NCBI GenBank assembly: GCA_026785925.1
Contig: JAJAZE010000316.1
Span: 1-41,684 of the forward strand
Length of the DNA: 41,684 nucleotides
Source: Pyrinomonadaceae bacterium
Lineage (GTDB): Bacteria > Acidobacteriota > Blastocatellia > Pyrinomonadales > Pyrinomonadaceae
Direction of reading: 5' to 3'
Part shown: one piece after another, positions 8,753 to 35,183 of the stretch
Layout: every line of letters starts with the position of its first letter
Position numbering within the stretch: position 1 is the first letter of the stretch
Position numbers and translations under genes: made by a program
Notes under the pieces: generated by a model
Databases searched by the model: none
Told to the model about the DNA's origin: nothing
Seen by the model: only the letters and a program-made list of their open reading frames with translations

Positions 8753-8939
8753 GTGAAAAGTGATAAGTGAGAGGTGATAAGTGATAAGTAAAAAGCCGTC
8801 TGAGATAAATGTAAATGTTTATTTCAGACGGCTTTCTCACCTATCACTTATCACTTATCACTTATCACTTATCACTTATCACTTATCACTTATCACTTAT
8901 CACTTATCACTTATCACTTATCACTTATCACTTCCCACT
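8752..8939. repeat. Inverted heptamer tandem arrays flanking a terminator hairpin
   Basis: Left arm GGTGAAA AGTGATA AGTGAGA GGTGATA AGTGATA (8752-8786). Right arm TCTCACC, then 13 perfect TATCACT (8842-8932), then TCCCACT. TATCACT is the reverse complement of AGTGATA. The array touches the stop codons of both convergent genes. Confidence 0.95.
8792..8835. terminator. Bidirectional intrinsic terminator between convergent genes
   Basis: AAAGCCGTCTGA (8792-8803) pairs with TCAGACGGCTTT (8824-8835). The stem is extended by ATAAA/TTTAT, with a T-run on the minus-strand side and TTT on the plus side. Confidence 0.7.
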
Positions 8940-9748: not shown

Positions 9749-10894
9749 ATGAATGCAACCAAAGAGCAGGAACGTCCGCCGAGACCGATTCAAAGCCGTC
9801 AGATCAAGGTCGGAAAATGGAACGAAAGTCTCAAGAAATCTGATGTCAACCAGATTTGGACGGAGCTTCACCGGATCGTTTCATCGCATCCGCTCGTGCG
9901 GGCTTCAAAACGCGCGGGGTTTCTCGTCGAAGAAGGAAAACACAACGCTTACACGGATTTAACGCAGGAGCTTTTCGTCGCGCTGCTGGGCAAAGAACGG
10001 TTCGCGCATTATATTGACACGCAGATGTCCGACCCGGAAATCGAAGCGGAAATCAGCCAGATCGAACTGACCAATATGCTGACCGCCGAGCTTCGCAAAC
10101 GCTATCCCGAATCGTATCGGCTGGCGCGGCGCGTCTCGACTTTGATTCAGACCGGCAAAATCTTCAAGCGGTTCGATAATATCAATAATCCCGACGTGCA
10201 TCGGCGTTTAGCCGATAGGCTTTACGGTTTGGCTGACTGGAAAAACGAGAAATCGCGGCGCAACGTCCAGGAAATGGAAGAGCGCGTCAAAACCGTTTCG
10301 TTTCAGAGCCGTGATACGCGAATGGTCGGCTGCACGGGCGACGCGCAAATCGTCATCAGCAACGTCGAACTGGAAAAATTGATCGTCCGCGTTTTCAAAG
10401 CGATTGATTCGCCGGTTGACGTGCGCTCGCTGCGCTCGTTCGTGATGTCGCGGCTGCCGATTATGGATATTTATTTGGTTCCGGTCGGCGGCGCAACCGA
10501 CGGCGGCGAAGAAGATAAAATGGAATTCGATTATCCAGACACGCGCGAGAATCCCGAACAAAATGTTCTGCGGCGCGAGGCGGAGATCACGGCGGCGGAT
10601 TTCGTCGAAAATTTCCTGGGTGAATTAAACAAATCCGTGCGTGGTAAAGCAAAACAATATAATCGGATGATCAGCGTTTTGTGGCATTGCTACTTGATTT
10701 CCGACAGCGGAACGCAGCTTGAAGTAGCGGAAATGCTCGGCGTTTCCGATTCTTTGGTTTCGGATTACCGCAAACGCATCGAGTCGAATTTACAGCGGCT
10801 TTCCTTTAACGGCGTGAACGAAGCCAGACATTTTGAAAAAGCTCTGCGCCACACCGTGCGCGGCATTATTGCGGTCGAAAATGTCACCGCCTAA
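9749..10894 (+). CDS. Atypical sigma-70-family-like protein with a long insertion between region-2-like and region-4-like segments
   Basis: Region-2-like DLTQELFVALLGKERFAHYI ... LTNMLTAELRKR near residue 70-115. C-terminal HTH resembling region 4.2 (TQLEVAEMLGVSDSLVSDYRKRIESNLQRL). About 200 aa of unassigned sequence lies between them. Assignment is by eye only. Confidence 0.5.
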   Translation: MNATKEQERPPRPIQSRQIKVGKWNESLKKSDVNQIWTELHRIVSSHPLVRASKRAGFLVEEGKHNAYTDLTQELFVALLGKERFAHYIDTQMSDPEIEAEISQIELTNMLTAELRKRYPESYRLARRVSTLIQTGKIFKRFDNINNPDVHRRLADRLYGLADWKNEKSRRNVQEMEERVKTVSFQSRDTRMVGCTGDAQIVISNVELEKLIVRVFKAIDSPVDVRSLRSFVMSRLPIMDIYLVPVGGATDGGEEDKMEFDYPDTRENPEQNVLRREAEITAADFVENFLGELNKSVRGKAKQYNRMISVLWHCYLISDSGTQLEVAEMLGVSDSLVSDYRKRIESNLQRLSFNGVNEARHFEKALRHTVRGIIAVENVTA

Positions 10895-10980
10895 AAGTGA
10901 GAAGTGAGAAGTGAGAAATGAGAAATAGAACAGTTTTTCACTTCTCACTTCTCACTTCTCACTTCTCACTTCTCACTTTT
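10895..10980. repeat. Inverted heptamer tandem arrays forming a long hairpin
   Basis: AGTGAGA x3 (10896-10916), then AATGAGA and AATAGAA; a short loop; then TTTCACT and TCTCACT x5 (10943-10977). It starts 1 nt after the stop codon of the sigma-like gene. Confidence 0.95.
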
Positions 10981-13915: not shown

Positions 13916-15526
13916 TTGGAAGAAACTTCAATCAAAACATCTTCATTAAAAATGCAGAGCGTGTGGCTTTTGTTTGCAAAGGTCGTCGGCTTCGGCTTTA
14001 GTTTCCTGCTGCCTTTGTTGATTGTCCGGTATCTAAGTCAAGAGCAAGTCGGGGTCTACCGGCAGGTTTTTCTCGTCATCATCAACGCCAATATCATCTT
14101 GATGCTCGGCTTCGGAATGAGCGCGTATTATTTTCTCGCCCGTGAAACCGTGCGCCGTCCGGCGGTGATTATCAACACGCTGCTTTTTAATTTCACGGTC
14201 GGCGGCATTGCCTGTCTGACGCTTTATTTTTATCCGCAGCTTATCGGCAACATCTTTCACAGCGCGGAAATCACCCGGCTCGCGCCGAAAATCGGCGTAG
14301 TCATCTGGCTCTGGATATTTTCCTCTTATTTGGAAATCGTGCCGGTCGCCAACCGCGAACCGCGAGCGGCGACGGCGTTTATCATTCTCGCGCAGATGAC
14401 GAAAACCGCTTTGATGATTTCGGCAGTCATCATTTTTACGACCGTCGAAGCCTTTGTCTATGCGGCGATGGCGCAGGCGGCAATTCAAACAATCGTGCTG
14501 CTCGTTTATCTCAATTCACGGTTTCCGAAATTTTGGACGGCATTCGACGCTTCGTTTTTCCGCGAACAGCTTTTCTACGCTCTGCCGTTTGGTTTGGCGA
14601 GCTTGCTCTGGACTCTGCAAACCGACATTCACAATTATTTCGTCGGTTATCAATTCGGTTCAGCCGAATTTGCGATTTACGCCATCGGATGTTTTGAACT
14701 GCCTTTAATTGCGATGCTCGCCGAATCGGTGACATCGGTTTTGATTCCGCGAATGAGCGAATTACAGTCACGCGGCGACAAACCAGGAATAATTCGTCTG
14801 ACGGCGCGGATAATGCAAAAGCTGGCGTTTTTTTATTTCCCGATTTACATCTTTTTGATGATTACGGCGCAAACTTTTATCACGACGCTCTTTACGCGCG
14901 ATTATCTGGCGAGTGTGCCGGTTTTTCTGATTAACATCACACTTCTGCCGATGTATATTCTCGTCACCGACCCGATTGTTCGCGCCTACAAGGAACTCGG
15001 CAGACTGCTGCTGACCCTGCGCGTTTTAATCATCGTCGCGCTGATTCCCGCGCTGTATTTCGGCATTCAAAATTTCGATTTGCGCGGGATGATTGCGATT
15101 GTCGTCGTGACGGCTTTCGTTGACCGTTTGGTTTCGACCGCCATCGTTTTAAAAAAATTAAACGCCGGCAGGCGCGATTTATTTTTGCTTAAGAACATCG
15201 GCAAAATCGCCGCCGCGAGTCTGCTGGCGGGATTTTTCACCTACCTGTTTTATTGGGGATTGAGCGAACAAATTTTCTGGTGGGGCGAACATTTGCCTCC
15301 GATGATTTTCAGTGCGCCGCGCACGAGCATCGTTGATTTTATCGCGGGCAATTTGGTTTTAGGCAGTTGTGCGCTGGTTTTTGCGCCGATTTATCTTTTC
15401 GCCGTGAACTTTTTCGGGGTGATCGAGAACGACGAAAAAGAGAAAATAAAATCCTTTATTCGTCGTCTGCTGCCGTTTGTTAAAAAAGTTACAATCCAAA
15501 ATCCAAAATCTGAAGTCCAAAATTGA
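13916..15526 (+). CDS. Polysaccharide flippase (Wzx / MOP superfamily)
   Basis: About 12-14 TM helices across 536 aa, in a polysaccharide-locus context. The C-terminal 11 codons are encoded by a heptamer array. Confidence 0.8.
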   Translation: MEETSIKTSSLKMQSVWLLFAKVVGFGFSFLLPLLIVRYLSQEQVGVYRQVFLVIINANIILMLGFGMSAYYFLARETVRRPAVIINTLLFNFTVGGIACLTLYFYPQLIGNIFHSAEITRLAPKIGVVIWLWIFSSYLEIVPVANREPRAATAFIILAQMTKTALMISAVIIFTTVEAFVYAAMAQAAIQTIVLLVYLNSRFPKFWTAFDASFFREQLFYALPFGLASLLWTLQTDIHNYFVGYQFGSAEFAIYAIGCFELPLIAMLAESVTSVLIPRMSELQSRGDKPGIIRLTARIMQKLAFFYFPIYIFLMITAQTFITTLFTRDYLASVPVFLINITLLPMYILVTDPIVRAYKELGRLLLTLRVLIIVALIPALYFGIQNFDLRGMIAIVVVTAFVDRLVSTAIVLKKLNAGRRDLFLLKNIGKIAAASLLAGFFTYLFYWGLSEQIFWWGEHLPPMIFSAPRTSIVDFIAGNLVLGSCALVFAPIYLFAVNFFGVIENDEKEKIKSFIRRLLPFVKKVTIQNPKSEVQN

Positions 15527-31920: not shown

Positions 31921-32547
31921 TCAAGAGTCGCCTCGCTGCGAAACTTCGTCGCCCGTCCACTGCGTTTTTTTCGAATGCGGAATGTCGAATTGGTCTAAAA
32001 TCCGGTAACACAAATGAGTGACCAAATCGTCAATCGTCTGCGGTTTGTGATAAAAACTCGGACTCGCTGACAAAATCGTCGCGCCGGCGCGGGCGACCCG
32101 CAGCATATTTTCCAGATGAATCTGATTAAAAGGCGTTTCGCGCGGCACTAAAATCAGCTTTCGGTTTTCCTTCAAACAGACATCGGCGGCGCGGTGAATC
32201 AGATTCGTTCCCGCGCCCGAAGCGATTGCGCCGAGCGTTCCCATCGAACACGGCACGATAATCATTCCCGCTTGTTTGTTCGAGCCGGACGCGGGTTTTG
32301 CCGCCAAATTATCCAAACGCCAGAAGCGAATCAGTTTAGAATTTGCCTCTAAACCGAGCCATTCGTTAATTTTTTCCGTGTTCGGGTCTTTCAGATTAAC
32401 GCCGAGTTCGACTTGCGCGACCGTCGGCACGACACCTGAAAAAATTAGATTTATCGTTTCGACCGCGCCGCTTTGCGCCAGCAACTGCAAGGTTCGCTGC
32501 CCGTAAATCGTGCCGGACGCGCCCGTGATTCCAACCGTTATTTCCAT
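31921..32547 (-). CDS. ubiX: Flavin prenyltransferase UbiX
   Basis: MEITVGITGASGTIYG, MIIVPCSMGTLGAIASG, LILVPRETP. Start placed at ATG 32545-32547. Confidence 0.9.
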   Translation of the reverse strand: MEITVGITGASGTIYGQRTLQLLAQSGAVETINLIFSGVVPTVAQVELGVNLKDPNTEKINEWLGLEANSKLIRFWRLDNLAAKPASGSNKQAGMIIVPCSMGTLGAIASGAGTNLIHRAADVCLKENRKLILVPRETPFNQIHLENMLRVARAGATILSASPSFYHKPQTIDDLVTHLCYRILDQFDIPHSKKTQWTGDEVSQRGDS

Positions 32548-32637
32548 AGCTTTTCTCAATGCTACAAAAATTCGGCGCGAATGAAAACGCATCGGGCGGT
32601 TTTATTTTTGCCGCGCCAGCTAATAAGATTTTAATCA

Positions 32638-33402
32638 ATGCAGACGAAAGATATAAAAAAAATTTTGGAAACCTACGCGACCGGCGAAATTTCCATCGGC
32701 ACAGCAACTGAACAATTAAAAAATCTGTCTTTTGAAAACCTCGGCTACGCCCGCGTTGACCACGCCCGCGCCGACCGGCAGGGTTTTCCCGAAGTGATTT
32801 TCGGTCAGGGAAAAACCAAAGAACAAATCGTCGGAATTTTTGAAAAACTCGCCGCCAAATCGCCGAATGTTTTAATCACGCGCACGACGGCGGAAGTTTT
32901 CGGCGAAATTCGCAACATTTTCACCGAAGCCGAATGGCACGAAGCCGCCGGACTGATTCGGCTGCACCGCGATCAAACAAAACTCGGCGCGGGCGAAATC
33001 GCCGTCGTCACCGCCGGAACTTCCGACATTCCCGTCGCCGAAGAAGCCGCACTGGTCAGCGAGACGATGGGCAACACGGTCACGCGAATCTGGGACGCGG
33101 GCGTTGCCGGAATTCACCGAATTTTAGCGGAAAGGGAAGTTCTGCAAACGGCGCGCGTCGTCATCGTCGTCGCCGGAATGGAAGGTGCATTACCGTCGGT
33201 CGTCGGCGGTTTAGTCAAAGTTCCGGTGATCGCCGTGCCGACTTCCATCGGCTACGGCGCGTCATTCGGCGGCATCGCCGCGCTTTTGGGAATGCTCAAC
33301 TCGTGCGCGTCGAACGTCACGGTCGTCAACATTGATAACGGTTTCGGCGCGGGTTTCGTGGCGAGTTTGATAAATCGGCGGCAGGAAAACGAAAACATCT
33401 AA
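32638..33402 (+). CDS. larB: LarB-type (AIR-carboxylase-like) nickel-pincer cofactor biosynthesis protein
   Basis: N-terminal helical domain plus a PurE-like domain ([44 protein letters not shown]). Confidence 0.85.
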
Positions 33403-33551: not shown

Positions 33552-35123
33552 ATGTCATTAGAAACGGATTTTATCGTGATCGGTAGCGGAGTCGCCGGGC
33601 TGCGCGCTTCGATTGAACTGGCGAAAAGCGGTGCGCGGGTTTCGGTCTTAACCAAAGATAAGGCGCAGGAGTCGAACACCGAATACGCGCAGGGCGGCGT
33701 GGCGGTCGTTCTCTCGGATGATGACAATGCCGAACTACACGAAGAAGACACGCTTTACGCGGGCGCGGGTTTGTGCGATGTCGAAGCAGTCGAAACGCTG
33801 GTCGCCGACGGCACGAAATATATCAAACAACTGATCGAATGGGGAATCGAATTTGACCGCGAAGGCGGCAAACTCGCCTTCACGCAGGAAGCGGCGCATT
33901 CGCGGCGGCGAATTCTGCACGCGCACGGCGATTCGACCGGCAAGGAAATCGTCCGCGCTTTGATTGCCCGCGCCCGCCAGGAAAAAAACATCGTTTTGAT
34001 GCCGTTTGCCAATACCGAAAGTTTGATTGTAAATGACGGCAGATGCGTCGGTGTAAGATTTTTAGACCCGATTCTTCGTGCGCCGCGTGAGATTTTCGCT
34101 AAGGCGGTAATTTTATGCACGGGCGGCGCGGGGCAATTATTTCTGCACACGACGAATCCGCCGGTGGCGACGGGCGACGGAATGGCAATGGCGTATTTCG
34201 CGGGCGCGGAAATGGCGGATATGGAATTTATCCAATTTCATCCGACGGCATTAAATTTGGAAAACGCGCCCAGATTTCTATTAAGCGAGGCGATGCGAGG
34301 CGAAGGCGGAATTTTGCGGAACGCGCAGGGCGAACGGTTTATGTCGCGCTATGACGATTTGCTCGAACTCGCGCCGCGTGATGTCGTCAGCCGTTCGATT
34401 GTTGCCGAAATGCGCCGGACGGGAACGCGCACGGTTTTCTTGGATATGACCGCGCACGACGAAAAGTTTCTTAAAGAACGATTTCCGAAAATTTATGAGA
34501 CGTGCAAATTTTACGATTTAAACGTCGCTAAAGATTTGCTGCCCGTCTCGCCCGCGTCGCATTATTGTATGGGCGGCGTTCGGACGGATTTGCACGGCAG
34601 AACGACTCTCAAAGGACTTTATGCGGCGGGCGAAGTCGCCTGCACGGGCGTTCACGGCGCGAATCGTCTGGCTTCAAATTCTTTATTAGAAGGCTTGGTT
34701 TTCGGTGCGCGGTCGGGCGAAGCCGCGATAAAAGACAATTACGAATTACGAATTACAAATTACGAATCGCCACCCGAAGACCAAAGACCGAAGACCAAAA
34801 ACCAATCTTCCGAAATTTCGACGGCGGTGAAAAAGCGCGTCAAGCGTGTGATGTGGGAGCGCGTCGGGATTTTGCGCGATAGAGATTCTTTACAAAGAGC
34901 GTTAAAAGAATTCGCGCAAATCGAACAGTCGAATCTCGGCACGTCGTCGCGCAATTTCGTCACGCTCGCCAAACTCGTCGCAGCCTCGGCGTTATGGCGC
35001 GAGGAATCACGCGGCGGACATTTCCGCAACGATTTTCCCGAACGTGACGACGTTAATTTTGACAAACATTCGATTCAAAAAATCGATGCGGAAATCTCTT
35101 CGAGCGAGAAAATAAACTTTTAA
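33552..35123 (+). CDS. nadB: L-aspartate oxidase
   Basis: FAD motif VIGSGVAGL, plus QGGVA, HPTAL, RGEGG, GEVACTGVHGANRLASNSLLEGLVFG, ESRGGHFR. Confidence 0.93.
   Translation: MSLETDFIVIGSGVAGLRASIELAKSGARVSVLTKDKAQESNTEYAQGGVAVVLSDDDNAELHEEDTLYAGAGLCDVEAVETLVADGTKYIKQLIEWGIEFDREGGKLAFTQEAAHSRRRILHAHGDSTGKEIVRALIARARQEKNIVLMPFANTESLIVNDGRCVGVRFLDPILRAPREIFAKAVILCTGGAGQLFLHTTNPPVATGDGMAMAYFAGAEMADMEFIQFHPTALNLENAPRFLLSEAMRGEGGILRNAQGERFMSRYDDLLELAPRDVVSRSIVAEMRRTGTRTVFLDMTAHDEKFLKERFPKIYETCKFYDLNVAKDLLPVSPASHYCMGGVRTDLHGRTTLKGLYAAGEVACTGVHGANRLASNSLLEGLVFGARSGEAAIKDNYELRITNYESPPEDQRPKTKNQSSEISTAVKKRVKRVMWERVGILRDRDSLQRALKEFAQIEQSNLGTSSRNFVTLAKLVAASALWREESRGGHFRNDFPERDDVNFDKHSIQKIDAEISSSEKINF
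34738..34807 (+). repeat. Two abutting heptamer tandem arrays inside the nadB reading frame
   Basis: AATTACG AATTACG AATTACA AATTACG AATCGCC ACCCGAA GACCAAA GACCGAA GACCAAA AACCAAT. Translated in frame as NYELRITNYESPPEDQRPKTKNQ. Confidence 0.85.
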
Positions 35124-35183
35124 GAAAGTGGTAAGTGCTAAGTGAAAAACAAAAACTTGCCACTTGCCACTTACCACTTTTCT
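35124..35183. terminator. Heptamer-array hairpin, bidirectional terminator between nadB and the TolC-like gene
   Basis: GAAAGTG GTAAGTG CTAAGTG (35124-35144) faces CTTGCCA CTTGCCA CTTACCA CTTTTCT (35156-35183). A 13-bp plus a 5-bp helix. Spans exactly from stop codon to stop codon. Confidence 0.8.

What the first reader, a model, noticed from the sequence alone, without database searches (positions are those of the whole stretch)
34738..34807. Heptamer tandem arrays embedded in frame inside an essential-pathway gene (nadB)
Ten consecutive 7-nt units lie within the L-aspartate oxidase ORF: four AATTACR, a transition AATCGCC ACCCGAA, three GACCRAA, then AACCAAT. They are translated as NYELRITNYESPPEDQRPKTKNQ. 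The segment falls just after the conserved GANRLASNSLLEGLVFG motif, in the variable linker before the C-terminal helical domain, where sequence is probably tolerated. It has no inverted partner. This shows the repeat-generating process also acts within coding DNA. Any change that is not a multiple of 3 units would frameshift nadB, giving a potential on/off switch for de novo NAD synthesis.
Basis: partly seen in the sequence, partly recalled or inferred. Interest (0 to 1): 0.66.

Follow-up and report, generated by a model that had tools for sequence, protein, structure and literature searches.

The report
Heptamer-repeat linker inside the nadB gene
Two short 7-base tandem repeats really do encode the flexible linker of the NAD-synthesis enzyme NadB; nearly all related soil Acidobacteria (Pyrinomonadaceae) build this linker the same way, often as a hairpin-forming inverted pair, but nothing indicates that it works as an on/off switch.

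Summary
Window 34737-34806 holds AATTACG x4.4 and GAAGACC-type x4.1 arrays in frame in nadB, residues 396-418. This is far beyond chance: no codon shuffle out of 2000 reached the observed score.

The arrays are not a local accident. In 136 distinct nadB linkers from Pyrinomonadaceae genomes and metagenomes, lag-7 identity is 0.54 against about 0.25 in the flanks. Repeat units differ between lineages.

In about a quarter to a third of lineages the second array is the reverse complement of the first. These give 25-33 bp hairpins (-40 to -59 kcal/mol) with compensatory unit changes in both arms. The window's copy is a non-hairpin form. The complement of AATTACG would carry TAA, so a perfect partner array is not possible in an ORF.

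The phase-variation idea is not supported:
- None of 146 copies is frameshifted in the arrays.
- Near-identical strains show no copy-number differences.
- The tracts are short, imperfect and lie 76% into the gene.

Most likely this is a slippage-maintained heptanucleotide microsatellite pair, tolerated in an unconstrained inter-domain linker. It is shaped by two constraints: the net length must stay a multiple of three, and all three reading phases must be stop-free. Whether the hairpin in relatives is functional remains open.

The parts
33552..35123 (+). nadB (L-aspartate oxidase), 523 aa, intact
   Evidence: ORF listed. Pfam FAD_binding_2 at 6.6e-104 and Succ_DH_flav_C at 9.5e-21. PDB 1chu E=1.1e-109. 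120 homologues at 83-89% identity, named L-aspartate oxidase from Pyrinomonadaceae.
34707..34829 (+). Variable inter-domain linker coding region, residues A386-V426, between the conserved ...LVFG and KKRVKRVMWERVGI motifs
   Evidence: Alignments of 121 proteins and 146 loci: the flanks are nearly invariant and the linker is hypervariable. Lag-7 identity is 0.538 in the linker against 0.246/0.224 in the flanks.
34737..34767 (+). Array 1: AATTACG x4.4 (third copy AATTACA). It starts at codon N396, directly after the nearly invariant D395, and encodes NYELRITNYE
   Evidence: TRF score 55. Lag-7 run score 15 against a maximum of 9 in 2000 codon shuffles. The 5' boundary GAY-A[AG]T is the same in relatives.
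34768..34773 (+). Short non-repeat spacer between the two arrays
   Evidence: Direct reading. In relatives with a hairpin, the corresponding spacer is the loop.
34774..34806 (+). Array 2: (C)CGAAGA/CCAAAGA-type heptamers (GACCRAA) x about 4, decaying into AACCAAT. Not complementary to array 1
   Evidence: TRF period 7 score 44 and period 14 score 53. Unit complementarity to array 1 is 3/7.
35124..35181 (.). Heptamer-armed hairpin immediately 3' of the nadB stop codon, between convergent nadB and an outer-membrane efflux (OEP) gene. Arms are AAGTGST x about 3 and CTTRCCA x about 3. Terminator-like, followed by a T-rich run
   Evidence: TRF rows 35126-35144 and 35155-35179. Inverted repeat I4, 20 nt, 90% complementary. 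RNA fold -26 kcal/mol, z=-4.7. A homologous 7-periodic hairpin is present in L005. OEP domain.
8753..8933 (.). Intergenic heptamer hairpin of the same kind. GTGATAA x5 and TCACTTA x14 flank an inner palindrome (about 8792-8836). It starts at the first base after the stop codon of an AMP-binding enzyme gene
   Evidence: TRF scores 53 and 187. Sequence. Fold -77.4 kcal/mol, z=-14.8. Pfam.
10895..10978 (.). Intergenic heptamer hairpin: AAGTGAG x4 / TCACTTC x6. It starts at the first base after the stop codon of ORF 9749-10894
   Evidence: TRF. Sequence. Fold -50.3 kcal/mol, z=-9.5.
15493..15523 (+). AATCCAA x4.4 array forming the last codons (...IQNPKSEVQN*) of a polysaccharide-biosynthesis gene, just before the asparagine synthase start. 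This is the same unit as nadB array 2 in relatives L003 and L019
   Evidence: TRF. Sequence. ORFs. Pfam. Linker DNAs.

Best explanation
The segment is a pair of short heptanucleotide microsatellites that encode the poorly constrained linker between the FAD-binding and C-terminal helical domains of NadB.

It is the local form of a feature shared by most Pyrinomonadaceae. The linker has been made of two 7-nt arrays at the same position since early in the family. The first array always starts right after the conserved Asp395 codon, and the second ends at the conserved I-S-T-A-V codons.

Inferred steps:
- The arrays turn over by replication slippage and homogenisation, so that the unit sequence is replaced lineage by lineage.
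- In many lineages, intrastrand template switching between the two arms keeps them reverse-complementary, as in the heptamer-armed hairpins that follow genes in the same genomes.

Shown filters that coding imposes:
- The net length stays a multiple of three.
- The unit must be free of stop codons in all three phases.

In the window's lineage the first unit became AATTACG. Its complement CGTAATT contains TAA, so a perfect partner array cannot exist in the ORF. The second array has drifted to GAAGACC, and no hairpin remains on either strand.

At the protein level the repeats simply supply a hydrophilic spacer of about 23 residues. A 7-nt slip would inactivate nadB, but this is a mutational liability that selection purges, not a used switch.
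For: Period-7 signal across the family:
- Lag-7 identity is 0.538 in 136 distinct linkers against about 0.25 in the flanks.
- 83 of 136 linkers have a lag-7 run of at least 10, against 0-1 for lags 4-6 and 8-12.

Common position, changing units:
- The 5' boundary is the same (GAY-A[AG]T) but units differ: AATTACG, AATTCAA, AATTCCA, GATTCCA, AGTTCCG, AGTCCCA, AGTGGTC, AGTTGGC and others.
- Intermediate arrays show stepwise unit change. Examples are AATCCGA AATCCGA AATCCAA AATCCAA in L004 and L020.

Length changes respect the reading frame:
- Linker lengths are 105-153 nt, all multiples of 3.
- P0048 has exactly +7 aa, which is 3 units.

Stop-codon filter:
- Only 4 of 156 array units carry a sense stop in any phase, against 31% of random heptamers.
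- 26 of 33 non-hairpin loci have an arm whose complement would contain a stop, against 5 of 17 hairpin loci (Fisher p=0.0016).
- The window's AATTACG gives TAA in its complement.

Not a switch:
- 0 of 146 copies are frameshifted in the arrays.
- Pairs with at least 98% flank identity differ only by point changes.

DNA level rather than mRNA level:
- Stem mismatches on the sense strand are A.C 80 against G.U 36.
- The antisense strand folds better in 80 of 108 array-bearing loci.

The same genome makes heptamer hairpins after genes at 8753-8933, 10895-10978 and 35124-35181.

The linker is unconserved in solved NadB homologues.

Over-representation of heptamer simple-sequence repeats (SSRs) in bacteria, and a slippage explanation for it, are established (Mrazek 2007 as cited in PMC4692102).
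Against: - The arrays persist at one mid-gene site across a family-level clade (76-91% NadB identity). Among about 450 neighbouring genes in 584 kb no other truly internal coding array was seen. That is more than a purely neutral 'tolerated anywhere' model predicts.
- The two arms show real compensatory change. 16 of 21 stem pairs change on both sides, with 79 double-change cells against 30 +/- 6 in shuffles. Ten unit classes have matched partners. This could reflect selection for a structure rather than a mutational mechanism.
- Slippage and template switching are inferred, not observed.
- The ancestral state (hairpin or not) is unresolved by my neighbour-joining tree.
- The claim that the linker is a surface loop rests on alignments only, because the AlphaFold run failed (mean pLDDT 39.8).
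Confidence: 0.64

Rival explanations
1. The paired arrays are a functional nucleic-acid hairpin embedded in nadB. It could be a DNA cruciform or template-strand structure, or an antisense or sense RNA element affecting nadB expression, replication or transcription. Selection maintains it across Pyrinomonadaceae, and the window's copy is a degenerate derivative that has lost it.
For: - Very stable hairpins occur in relatives: L031 -56.0, L039 -50.3 and L089 -58.7 kcal/mol, z about -11.
- 24 of 129 loci have z<-3.5 on the sense strand, and 34 of 129 on either strand.
- 34% of two-array loci have at least 6/7 complementary units, against 7.4% for swapped pairs and 0.9% for random heptamers.
- Compensatory changes occur at 16 of 21 stem pairs, and slid-register controls collapse.
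- The site is conserved while other coding arrays are essentially absent.
Against: - Most lineages (about 70%), including the window, lack the hairpin and still keep an intact nadB.
- The mismatch spectrum favours A.C over G.U on the mRNA strand, which is the opposite of a selected mRNA helix.
- By inspection, no T-run follows the intragenic hairpins.
- There is no Rfam match.
- Intrastrand template switching in quasi-palindromes can produce the same covariation without selection (established mutational mechanism, from my own knowledge).
- The sequences were chosen for having a stem and are phylogenetically related.
Confidence: 0.17
2. The heptamer tracts are a contingency locus. Gain or loss of one or two units frameshifts nadB, giving reversible on/off switching of de novo NAD synthesis.
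For: - The units are 7 nt, so any change that is not a multiple of three units shifts the frame.
- Long-term unit turnover implies that slippage does occur.
- Five metagenome contigs end at or near the start of this linker or within it (L143, L144, L146, L147, L148). This could reflect repeat-length heterogeneity as well as assembly difficulty.
- A precedent exists in neuO.
Against: - 0 of 146 assembled copies are out of frame in the arrays, against 65.6% OFF genomes for neuO.
- Tracts are 4 units and imperfect, against 3-53 units (mode 20) in neuO.
- Pairs with at least 98% flank identity show no unit-number difference.
- The position is 76% into the ORF rather than the 5' end, where phase-variable SSRs are enriched (PMC3315296).
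- Many lineages have mutated the arrays into non-repetitive sequence without loss of the gene (21 of 129).
Confidence: 0.05
3. Heptamer-hairpin elements were inserted repeatedly and independently into this permissive site, acting as a mobile or copy-pasted repeat, rather than evolving in situ from one ancestral array pair.
For: - Units differ sharply between close relatives. L126 and L136 have 96.5% identical flanks but unalignable linkers.
- The same unit pairs (AATTCCA/TGGAATT, AGTCCCA/TGGGACT) recur in distant parts of the tree.
- nadB array-2 units also occur elsewhere in genomes, for example AATCCAA at window 15493-15523.
Against: - The array boundaries are fixed to the same codons in all lineages, and total linker length is held at about 117-126 nt.
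- There are no target-site duplications or flanking element sequences.
- Intermediate mixed arrays document gradual unit replacement.
- Recurrence of units can be convergence, since only about 50% of heptamers are stop-free on both strands.
Confidence: 0.1
4. Selection acts on the protein. A 7-residue peptide repeat is favoured in the linker, and the nucleotide periodicity is a by-product.
For: Peptides are 7-aa periodic (NYELRITNYE). Linker length is conserved.
Against: - The period is 7 nt, not 21. Each peptide heptad is simply the three reading phases of one heptamer.
- Unrelated peptides replace each other between lineages.
- Identical-period arrays occur in non-coding DNA of the same window.
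- The same NYELRIT string appears in spurious mini-ORFs over heptamer arrays in Nostocales and Bacteroidota.
Confidence: 0.02

Closest known systems
Bacterial heptanucleotide simple-sequence repeats: cyanobacterial STRR arrays (Calothrix/Nostoc), GGGAATC arrays of Xanthomonas, and TAACTGA arrays of Beggiatoaceae, Cyanobacteria and Bacteroidetes
   Same: - Head-to-tail 7-nt units.
- Genome-level excess of period 7 over other periods (literature).
- Mostly intergenic and close to gene ends.
- Occasional inverted pairs (Xanthomonas).
- Occasional overlap with the ends of ORFs.
- The very unit AATTACG (peptide NYELRIT) forms long arrays in Nostocales, including Tolypothrix PCC 7601, and in Bacteroidota.
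   Different: - Here the host is an acidobacterial family for which I found no report.
- Units are not a few fixed genome-wide families but differ from locus to locus.
- The nadB arrays lie mid-ORF in a conserved enzyme, at an orthologous site across a whole family.
- They come as two arrays that co-vary as hairpin arms.
neuO of E. coli K1 (CUS-3 prophage O-acetyltransferase): in-frame heptanucleotide AAGACTC repeats causing phase variation
   Same: Seven-nt units are translated in all three phases into a heptad peptide. The protein is full length only when the tract length keeps the frame (PMC13001214).
   Different: - neuO has 3-53 perfect repeats in the 5' region, measurable minority tract lengths within cultures, and 65.6% of genomes OFF.
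- nadB has two imperfect tracts of about 4 units at 76% of the ORF, 0 of 146 OFF, and no length variation among near-identical strains.
Quasi-palindrome or hairpin-associated template-switch mutagenesis, and REP-like or terminator hairpins
   Same: Inverted arms kept complementary through coordinated changes. Hairpins sit directly after stop codons in the same window.
   Different: The stems are internally 7-nt periodic. One such pair sits inside a coding sequence, where it must also stay stop-free in three phases on the coding strand. The template-switch mechanism is inferred from general knowledge and was not tested here.

Membership tests
SSR-mediated phase-variable (contingency) gene, neuO type | Tract of non-triplet units inside the ORF, so that gain or loss of a unit shifts the frame | tested here: met
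   7-nt units in frame in nadB.
SSR-mediated phase-variable (contingency) gene, neuO type | Long, essentially perfect tract giving a high slippage rate | tested here: not met
   4.4 copies at 91% matches and 4.1 copies at 86%. neuO has 3-53 repeats, most commonly 20.
SSR-mediated phase-variable (contingency) gene, neuO type | OFF-frame alleles found among natural genomes | tested here: not met
   0 of 146 nadB copies are frameshifted in the arrays, against 65.6% OFF for neuO. Assemblies are consensus sequences, so rare variants would be missed.
SSR-mediated phase-variable (contingency) gene, neuO type | Tract-length polymorphism between very closely related strains | tested here: not met
   12 pairs have at least 98% flank identity. 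9 have identical linkers and 3 differ only by point substitutions, with no unit-number change. The sample is small and some pairs may come from the same sample.
SSR-mediated phase-variable (contingency) gene, neuO type | Tract near the 5' end of the ORF | tested here: not met
   Residues 396-418 of 523, about 76% into the ORF. N-terminal enrichment in phase-variable species per PMC3315296.
SSR-mediated phase-variable (contingency) gene, neuO type | Measured reversible switching | not testable with these tools
   Needs reads or cultures.
Bacterial heptanucleotide SSR arrays (STRR-like) | Head-to-tail 7-nt units with period-7 excess in the genome | tested here: met
   The window has 5-6 period-7 arrays against 0 at other periods and 0.04 expected. 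Related loci have 70 arrays at lag 7 against 0-6 at other lags.
Bacterial heptanucleotide SSR arrays (STRR-like) | A few fixed unit sequences repeated genome-wide (STRR1-3, TAACTGA, GGGAATC) | tested here: not met
   Units differ at each locus of the window (AATTACG, GAAGACC, GTGATAA, AAGTGAG, AAGTGCT, AATCCAA) and between orthologous linkers. Only 42 kb of this genome was seen.
Bacterial heptanucleotide SSR arrays (STRR-like) | Predominantly intergenic location | tested here: met
   Three of the window's array sites are intergenic hairpins starting at or within 3 nt after a stop codon. The nadB pair is the exception.
L-aspartate oxidase (NadB) | FAD_binding_2 plus Succ_DH_flav_C architecture, and closest solved homologues are NadB | tested here: met
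Conserved structured nucleic-acid element (hairpin with covariation) | Stable hairpin in the window's own sequence | tested here: not met
   z=-0.39 for RNA on the sense strand, z=-0.6 on the antisense strand, and DNA parameters give z about -1 on both strands.
Conserved structured nucleic-acid element (hairpin with covariation) | Stable hairpin and compensatory changes in orthologues | tested here: met
   24-34 of 129 loci. Energies of -50 to -59 kcal/mol, z about -11. 16 of 21 pairs change on both sides, and 0 of 500 shuffles reach the observed covariation. Caveat: the loci were selected for having a stem and the sequences are related.
Conserved structured nucleic-acid element (hairpin with covariation) | Wobble pattern consistent with a helix in the mRNA | tested here: not met
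   A.C 80 against G.U 36 on the sense strand, p=5e-5. The antisense strand is more stable in 80 of 108 array-bearing loci.

The most novel reading that the evidence does not exclude
Pyrinomonadaceae nadB carries a conserved intragenic 'coding hairpin microsatellite'. It consists of two heptamer arrays whose units are replaced in concert, so that a 25-33 bp stem is preserved while all three reading phases stay open. This would imply either selection for a DNA or antisense-strand structure inside a housekeeping ORF, or a lineage-specific repeat-generating and repeat-correcting mechanism akin to whatever makes cyanobacterial STRRs. The window shows the decayed end-state that arises when the unit acquires a complement containing a stop codon.
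Probability: 0.2. Interest if true: 0.75.

Novelty: new variant of a known kind. Interest (0 to 1): 0.55.

Why it matters
Non-triplet microsatellites are normally purged from the middle of essential-pathway genes or exploited as switches. Here a pair of them has persisted at one orthologous site through the diversification of a whole bacterial family.

This gives a natural time series of how 7-nt arrays are born, homogenised, mirrored into hairpins and decay under a three-phase coding constraint. It extends the puzzling bacterial heptamer-repeat phenomenon to Acidobacteria. That phenomenon is known from cyanobacteria, Xanthomonas and Beggiatoaceae, and its mechanism is still unknown.

It also offers a tractable locus for separating mutational causes of hairpin covariation (slippage or template switching) from selective ones.

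For annotation, the result is a warning in two directions. Such tracts break assemblies: five metagenome contigs end at or near this linker. They also spawn spurious mini-ORFs.

Tried and rejected
- Exact-sequence look-up of the window's NadB found no record.
- AlphaFold2 with a 47-sequence alignment gave mean pLDDT 39.8 and is unusable, because all members are at least 83% identical. The model was not used, and no fold search was run.
- An Rfam scan of the whole window found no family at gathering score.
- Literature searches for heptamer repeats in Acidobacteria or Pyrinomonadaceae found nothing relevant.
- A search for a NadB structure paper describing domain boundaries found nothing in the library.
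- I looked for frameshifted nadB copies. L151 has a 64-nt gap, but it lies upstream of the linker in conserved sequence, so it is probably an assembly problem or pseudogene. L127 has one in-frame TAA at the start of the linker. Neither is a 7-nt slip.
- I tested whether the window's array 2 pairs instead with the conserved LVFG-coding segment (34686-34714 against 34786-34814, 72% complementary). Extended folds are not significant (z=-1.0 to +1.0 in most relatives; z about -1). I left this as an unexplained resemblance.
- I considered an intragenic intrinsic terminator for the relatives' hairpins. By inspection no T-run follows them.
- My neighbour-joining tree is too poorly resolved to say whether the hairpin state is ancestral.
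Full report
**The observation**

Reading the window and splitting it by script gives ten consecutive 7-nt units at 34737-34806. They are AATTACG AATTACG AATTACA AATTACG AATCGCC ACCCGAA GACCAAA GACCGAA GACCAAA AACCAAT.

Tandem Repeats Finder reports 34737-34767 (period 7, 4.4 copies, score 55). It also reports 34777-34805 (period 7, 4.1 copies, score 44), and 34774-34803 at period 14 with score 53.

The segment is in frame in ORF 33552..35123 (+) and is read as NYELRITNYESPPEDQRPKTKNQ, residues 396-418 of 523. The ORF is L-aspartate oxidase:
- Pfam FAD_binding_2 at 6.6e-104 and Succ_DH_flav_C.
- E. coli NadB 1chu at E=1.1e-109.

Chance is excluded. The best lag-7 run in nadB scores 15, against a maximum of 9 in 2000 codon shuffles. 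The window holds 6 lag-7 runs of at least 10, against 0.04 expected. At a fixed threshold there are five arrays at period 7 and none at periods 4-6 or 8-12.

**Position in the protein**

The repeats begin right after D395, ten codons after the conserved ...NSLLEGLVFG motif. They end before the conserved I-S-T-A-V-K-K-R-V-K-R-V-M-W stretch that opens the C-terminal helical domain.

In alignments to solved structures, the E. coli and Salmonella enzymes have an unrelated stretch of similar length here. The Sulfurisphaera tokodaii enzyme is several residues shorter. So the repeats replace an ordinary variable linker and are not an insertion.

An AlphaFold run on 47 close homologues failed (mean pLDDT 39.8). 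'Surface loop' therefore remains an inference from non-conservation.

**The organism, and the same site in relatives**

The 120 best protein matches (83-89% identity) are named L-aspartate oxidase of Pyrinomonadaceae or Acidobacteriota. Their linkers all show 7-residue periodic peptides, but with different sequences: NYELRIT, NSKFKIQ, DSRFQIP, GKWKMEN, then EDQRPKT, NPKSKIQ, ESGIWNL, PQSAIRN and others.

I fetched 80 nadB loci from species-representative genomes and 80 from metagenomes. These yielded 146 linkers, of which 136 are distinct DNAs.
- Identity at lag 7 is 0.538 in the linker, against 0.246 and 0.224 in the 300 nt on either side.
- Harmonics appear at lag 14 (0.482) and lag 21 (0.421).
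- 83 of 136 linkers contain a lag-7 run of at least 10, against 0-1 at any other lag from 4 to 12.
- 32 linkers contain two such runs.

The peptides are thus the three-phase read-out of different heptamers:
- Array 1 uses AATTACG, AATTCAA, AATTCCA, GATTCCA, AATTTCA, AGTTCCG, AGTCCCA, AGTGGTC or AGTTGGC.
- Array 2 uses AATCCAA, AATCCGC, AATCTGG, GAAGACC, GAAACCG, CGGAACT or TGGGACT.

The first array always starts at the same codon (GAY then A[AG]T), and total linker length is held near 117-126 nt. A more distant acidobacterial NadB (L159, 53% identity) and about 21 of 129 family members show no periodicity.

**The site is special**

In 584 kb of window plus related loci there are 70 period-7 arrays. 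57 of them lie in the nadB linker. Of the other 13, eight are intergenic. The five that fall in long ORF frames lie within about 90 nt of the frame's 5' end, probably upstream of the real start codon. This is therefore a conserved feature of this gene in this family, not random spill-over of a repeat-generating process into coding DNA.

**The two arrays are often inverted partners**

Among 50 linkers with two well-defined arrays, 17 (34%) have units that are at least 6/7 reverse-complementary. The figure is 7.4% for pairs swapped between loci and 0.9% for random heptamers. Ten different first-arm unit classes have a matching second arm.

Folding gives long hairpins in the coding sequence:
- L031 -56.0 kcal/mol, L039 -50.3 and L089 -58.7, each with z about -11 against dinucleotide shuffles.
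- 24 of 129 loci have z<-3.5 on the sense strand, and 34 of 129 on either strand.

I then took 25 loci that have a stem and aligned them in register on the first 21 nt of arm 1 and its partners.
- 16 of 21 pairs change on both sides.
- There are 79 double-change cells, against 30.2 +/- 6.2 in shuffles (0 of 500 reach the observed value).
- Slid registers collapse.

The caveats are that these loci were selected for having a stem, the sequences are related, and each unit position is counted three times.

The window itself is not of this type. Its units match 3/7. RNA folds of the linker alone give z=-0.39 on the sense strand and z=-0.6 on the antisense strand. DNA-parameter folds of the linker plus 36 upstream bases give z about -1 on both strands.

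**Why the window has no partner**

An array of three or more units is read in all three phases, so it must be free of stop codons in every phase. Only 4 of 156 linker arrays have a unit with a sense-strand stop, against 31% of all heptamers. Those four are short or interrupted.

A complementary second arm must meet the same condition. AATTACG contains TTA, so its complement CGTAATT contains TAA. AATTCAA, AATTTCA and AGTGGTC contain TCA, so their complements contain TGA.

Accordingly, 26 of 33 non-hairpin loci have an arm whose perfect complement would carry a stop, against 5 of 17 hairpin loci (Fisher p=0.0016, not phylogenetically corrected). All six loci with 7/7 complementary units have a first-arm unit whose complement is stop-free.

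The window's lineage (AATTACG with GAAGACC; also L081-L084, L086, L139 and P0001) is therefore a state in which hairpin complementarity and an open reading frame are incompatible.

**DNA or RNA**

In the stems, mismatches one transition away from a pair are A.C 80 against G.U 36 on the mRNA strand (p=5e-5). The antisense strand folds more stably in 80 of 108 array-bearing loci. Ten loci are significant hairpins only on the antisense strand (for example L009: -12.7 sense against -41.4 antisense), while one is significant only on the sense strand.

That is the opposite of what a selected mRNA helix would show. It fits a DNA-level or template-strand property. Alternatively, it may simply reflect protein-level selection for A-rich hydrophilic codons in both arms. 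None of the intragenic hairpins is followed by a T-run (by inspection), and Rfam has no match in the window.

**Dynamics**

- Twelve locus pairs have at least 98% identical flanks. Nine of them have identical linkers, and three differ by two to six point substitutions with no change in unit number. Some of these pairs may come from the same sample.
- At 96.5% flank identity (L126/L136) the linkers are already unalignable. At 93% (L013/L022) they differ at 36 of 120 positions.
- Mixed arrays such as AATCCGA AATCCGA AATCCAA AATCCAA (L004, L020) show stepwise unit replacement.
- P0048 has exactly seven extra residues, which is three units.
- All linker lengths are multiples of three.

So the tracts turn over much faster than the rest of the gene, but not on the time scale of strain diversification.

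**The switch hypothesis**

A 7-nt slip would indeed frameshift nadB. However:
- None of 146 copies is out of frame in the arrays.
- The only defects seen are a 64-nt gap upstream of the linker in L151 and a single in-frame TAA in L127.
- The comparator is neuO of E. coli K1, which has 3-53 perfect AAGACTC repeats in the 5' region. Of 64 complete genomes, 65.6% are OFF, and minority tract lengths are measurable within a culture (PMC13001214).
- Phase-variable SSRs are enriched near N-termini (PMC3315296).
- The nadB tracts are four imperfect units, 76% into the ORF.

Five metagenome contigs end at or near the start of this linker or within it. That is compatible with repeat-induced assembly breaks and proves nothing about heterogeneity. 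I put the switch at about 5%.

**Context in the window**

The same genome carries heptamer-armed hairpins directly after stop codons:
- 8753-8933: GTGATAA x5 and TCACTTA x14 around an inner palindrome, -77.4 kcal/mol, z=-14.8.
- 10895-10978: AAGTGAG / TCACTTC, -50.3 kcal/mol, z=-9.5.
- 35124-35181: right after nadB and between convergent genes, -26 kcal/mol, z=-4.7. A homologous 7-periodic hairpin is present in L005.

An AATCCAA x4.4 array forms the C-terminal tail of a polysaccharide-biosynthesis gene at 15493-15523.

**Comparison with what is known**

[quoted passage not shown] Xanthomonas GGGAATC arrays (including inverted pairs) and Nostoc arrays have been described (PMC4692102). TAACTGA arrays occur in Beggiatoaceae, Cyanobacteria and Bacteroidetes, and the few that lie in ORFs are confined to protein termini (PMC4679880).

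A search with (NYELRIT)x6 returned mostly 30-75-residue 'hypothetical proteins' over AATTACG arrays. The named hits are from Cylindrospermopsis, Nostoc, Anabaena, Sphaerospermopsis, Tolypothrix PCC 7601 and some Bacteroidota. The same unit is therefore recurrent in other heptamer-rich phyla.

I found no report for Acidobacteria. What appears to be new:
- The host family.
- The orthologous mid-ORF site conserved across that family.
- The two-array architecture with compensatory arm evolution.
- The explicit three-phase stop-codon filter.

**Verdict**

The best explanation (about 0.64) is a slippage-maintained pair of heptanucleotide microsatellites occupying a tolerant inter-domain linker. It is inherited from the family's ancestor and mirrored into a hairpin where the code allows. 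In this window it has decayed to a non-hairpin form because the complement of its unit would encode a stop codon.

A functional DNA or antisense hairpin in relatives remains possible (about 0.17). This is a new variant of a known kind, of moderate interest.

Noticed in passing
window 8753-8933: A large intergenic hairpin begins at the first base after a stop codon. GTGATAA x5 on the left and TCACTTA x14 on the right (strongly asymmetric) flank an ordinary GC-rich palindrome (AAAAAGCCGTCTGA...TCAGACGGCTTT). The fold is -77.4 kcal/mol, z=-14.8. The heptamer arms look like outward extensions of a normal terminator stem.
   Followed up: partly
window 10895-10978 and 35124-35181: Two more heptamer-armed hairpins start at or within 3 nt after stop codons. 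All three intergenic hairpins share an AAGTG core in one arm (AAGTGAT, AAGTGAG, AAGTGCT/AAGTGGT) and CACTT in the other. The nadB units are unrelated to this core. The one after nadB is conserved as a 7-periodic hairpin in L005, but most other relatives examined have ordinary (non-7-periodic) hairpins or none there.
   Followed up: partly
window 15493-15523: An AATCCAA x4.4 array encodes the last residues (...IQNPKSEVQN*) of a Polysacc_synt-family gene and ends 4 nt before the asparagine synthase start codon. The unit is identical to nadB array 2 in relatives L003 and L019. Whether this reflects exchange between loci or convergence is unknown.
   Followed up: no
window 34686-34714 versus 34786-34814: Array 2 (ACCGAAGACCAAAAACC) is 72% complementary over 29 nt to the conserved codons for EGLVFGAR (GGCTTGGTTTTCGGT). 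The reverse complement of TTGGTTTTCGG differs from CCGAAGACCAA at one base. MFE folds pair these segments in the window and several GAAGACC-type relatives, but the z-scores are not significant (-2.3 to +1.0). This is a possible trace of where this unit was templated from, or coincidence.
   Followed up: partly
L143, L144, L146, L147, L148 (metagenome contigs): Five contigs end at or near the start of the nadB linker or within it. L144 and L148 stop in the conserved codons a few bases before it. The likely cause is assembly breaks at the repeats, but strain-level heterogeneity cannot be excluded.
   Followed up: no
L127 linker start; L151 about 1090-1160 of the gene: L127 has an in-frame TAA (ARAG*AAS) just before a perfect AGTTCCA/TGGAACT hairpin. 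L151 lacks 64 nt of conserved sequence upstream of the linker. These are possible pseudogenes or assembly errors. Neither is a 7-nt slip.
   Followed up: partly
proteins P0121-P0240: The peptide NYELRIT repeated, which is the AATTACG array, occurs in dozens of 30-75-residue 'hypothetical proteins'. The named ones are from Nostocales (including Tolypothrix PCC 7601, the classical STRR organism) and some Bacteroidota. They are evidently spurious ORFs called over heptamer arrays. The same heptamer therefore recurs in three phyla.
   Followed up: partly
window 32638-33402: The gene directly upstream of nadB has an AIR-carboxylase (PurE-like) domain and resembles LarB. From my own knowledge, LarB acts on nicotinic acid adenine dinucleotide, so this may be a functional neighbourhood with NAD metabolism. 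A UbiX-type flavoprotein gene lies divergently upstream (31921-32592).
   Followed up: no
L126 versus L136; L013 versus L022: The nadB flanks are 96.5% and 93% identical, but the linkers are unalignable or differ at 36 of 120 positions. Linker turnover therefore looks episodic (replacement of whole arrays) rather than clock-like.
   Followed up: partly
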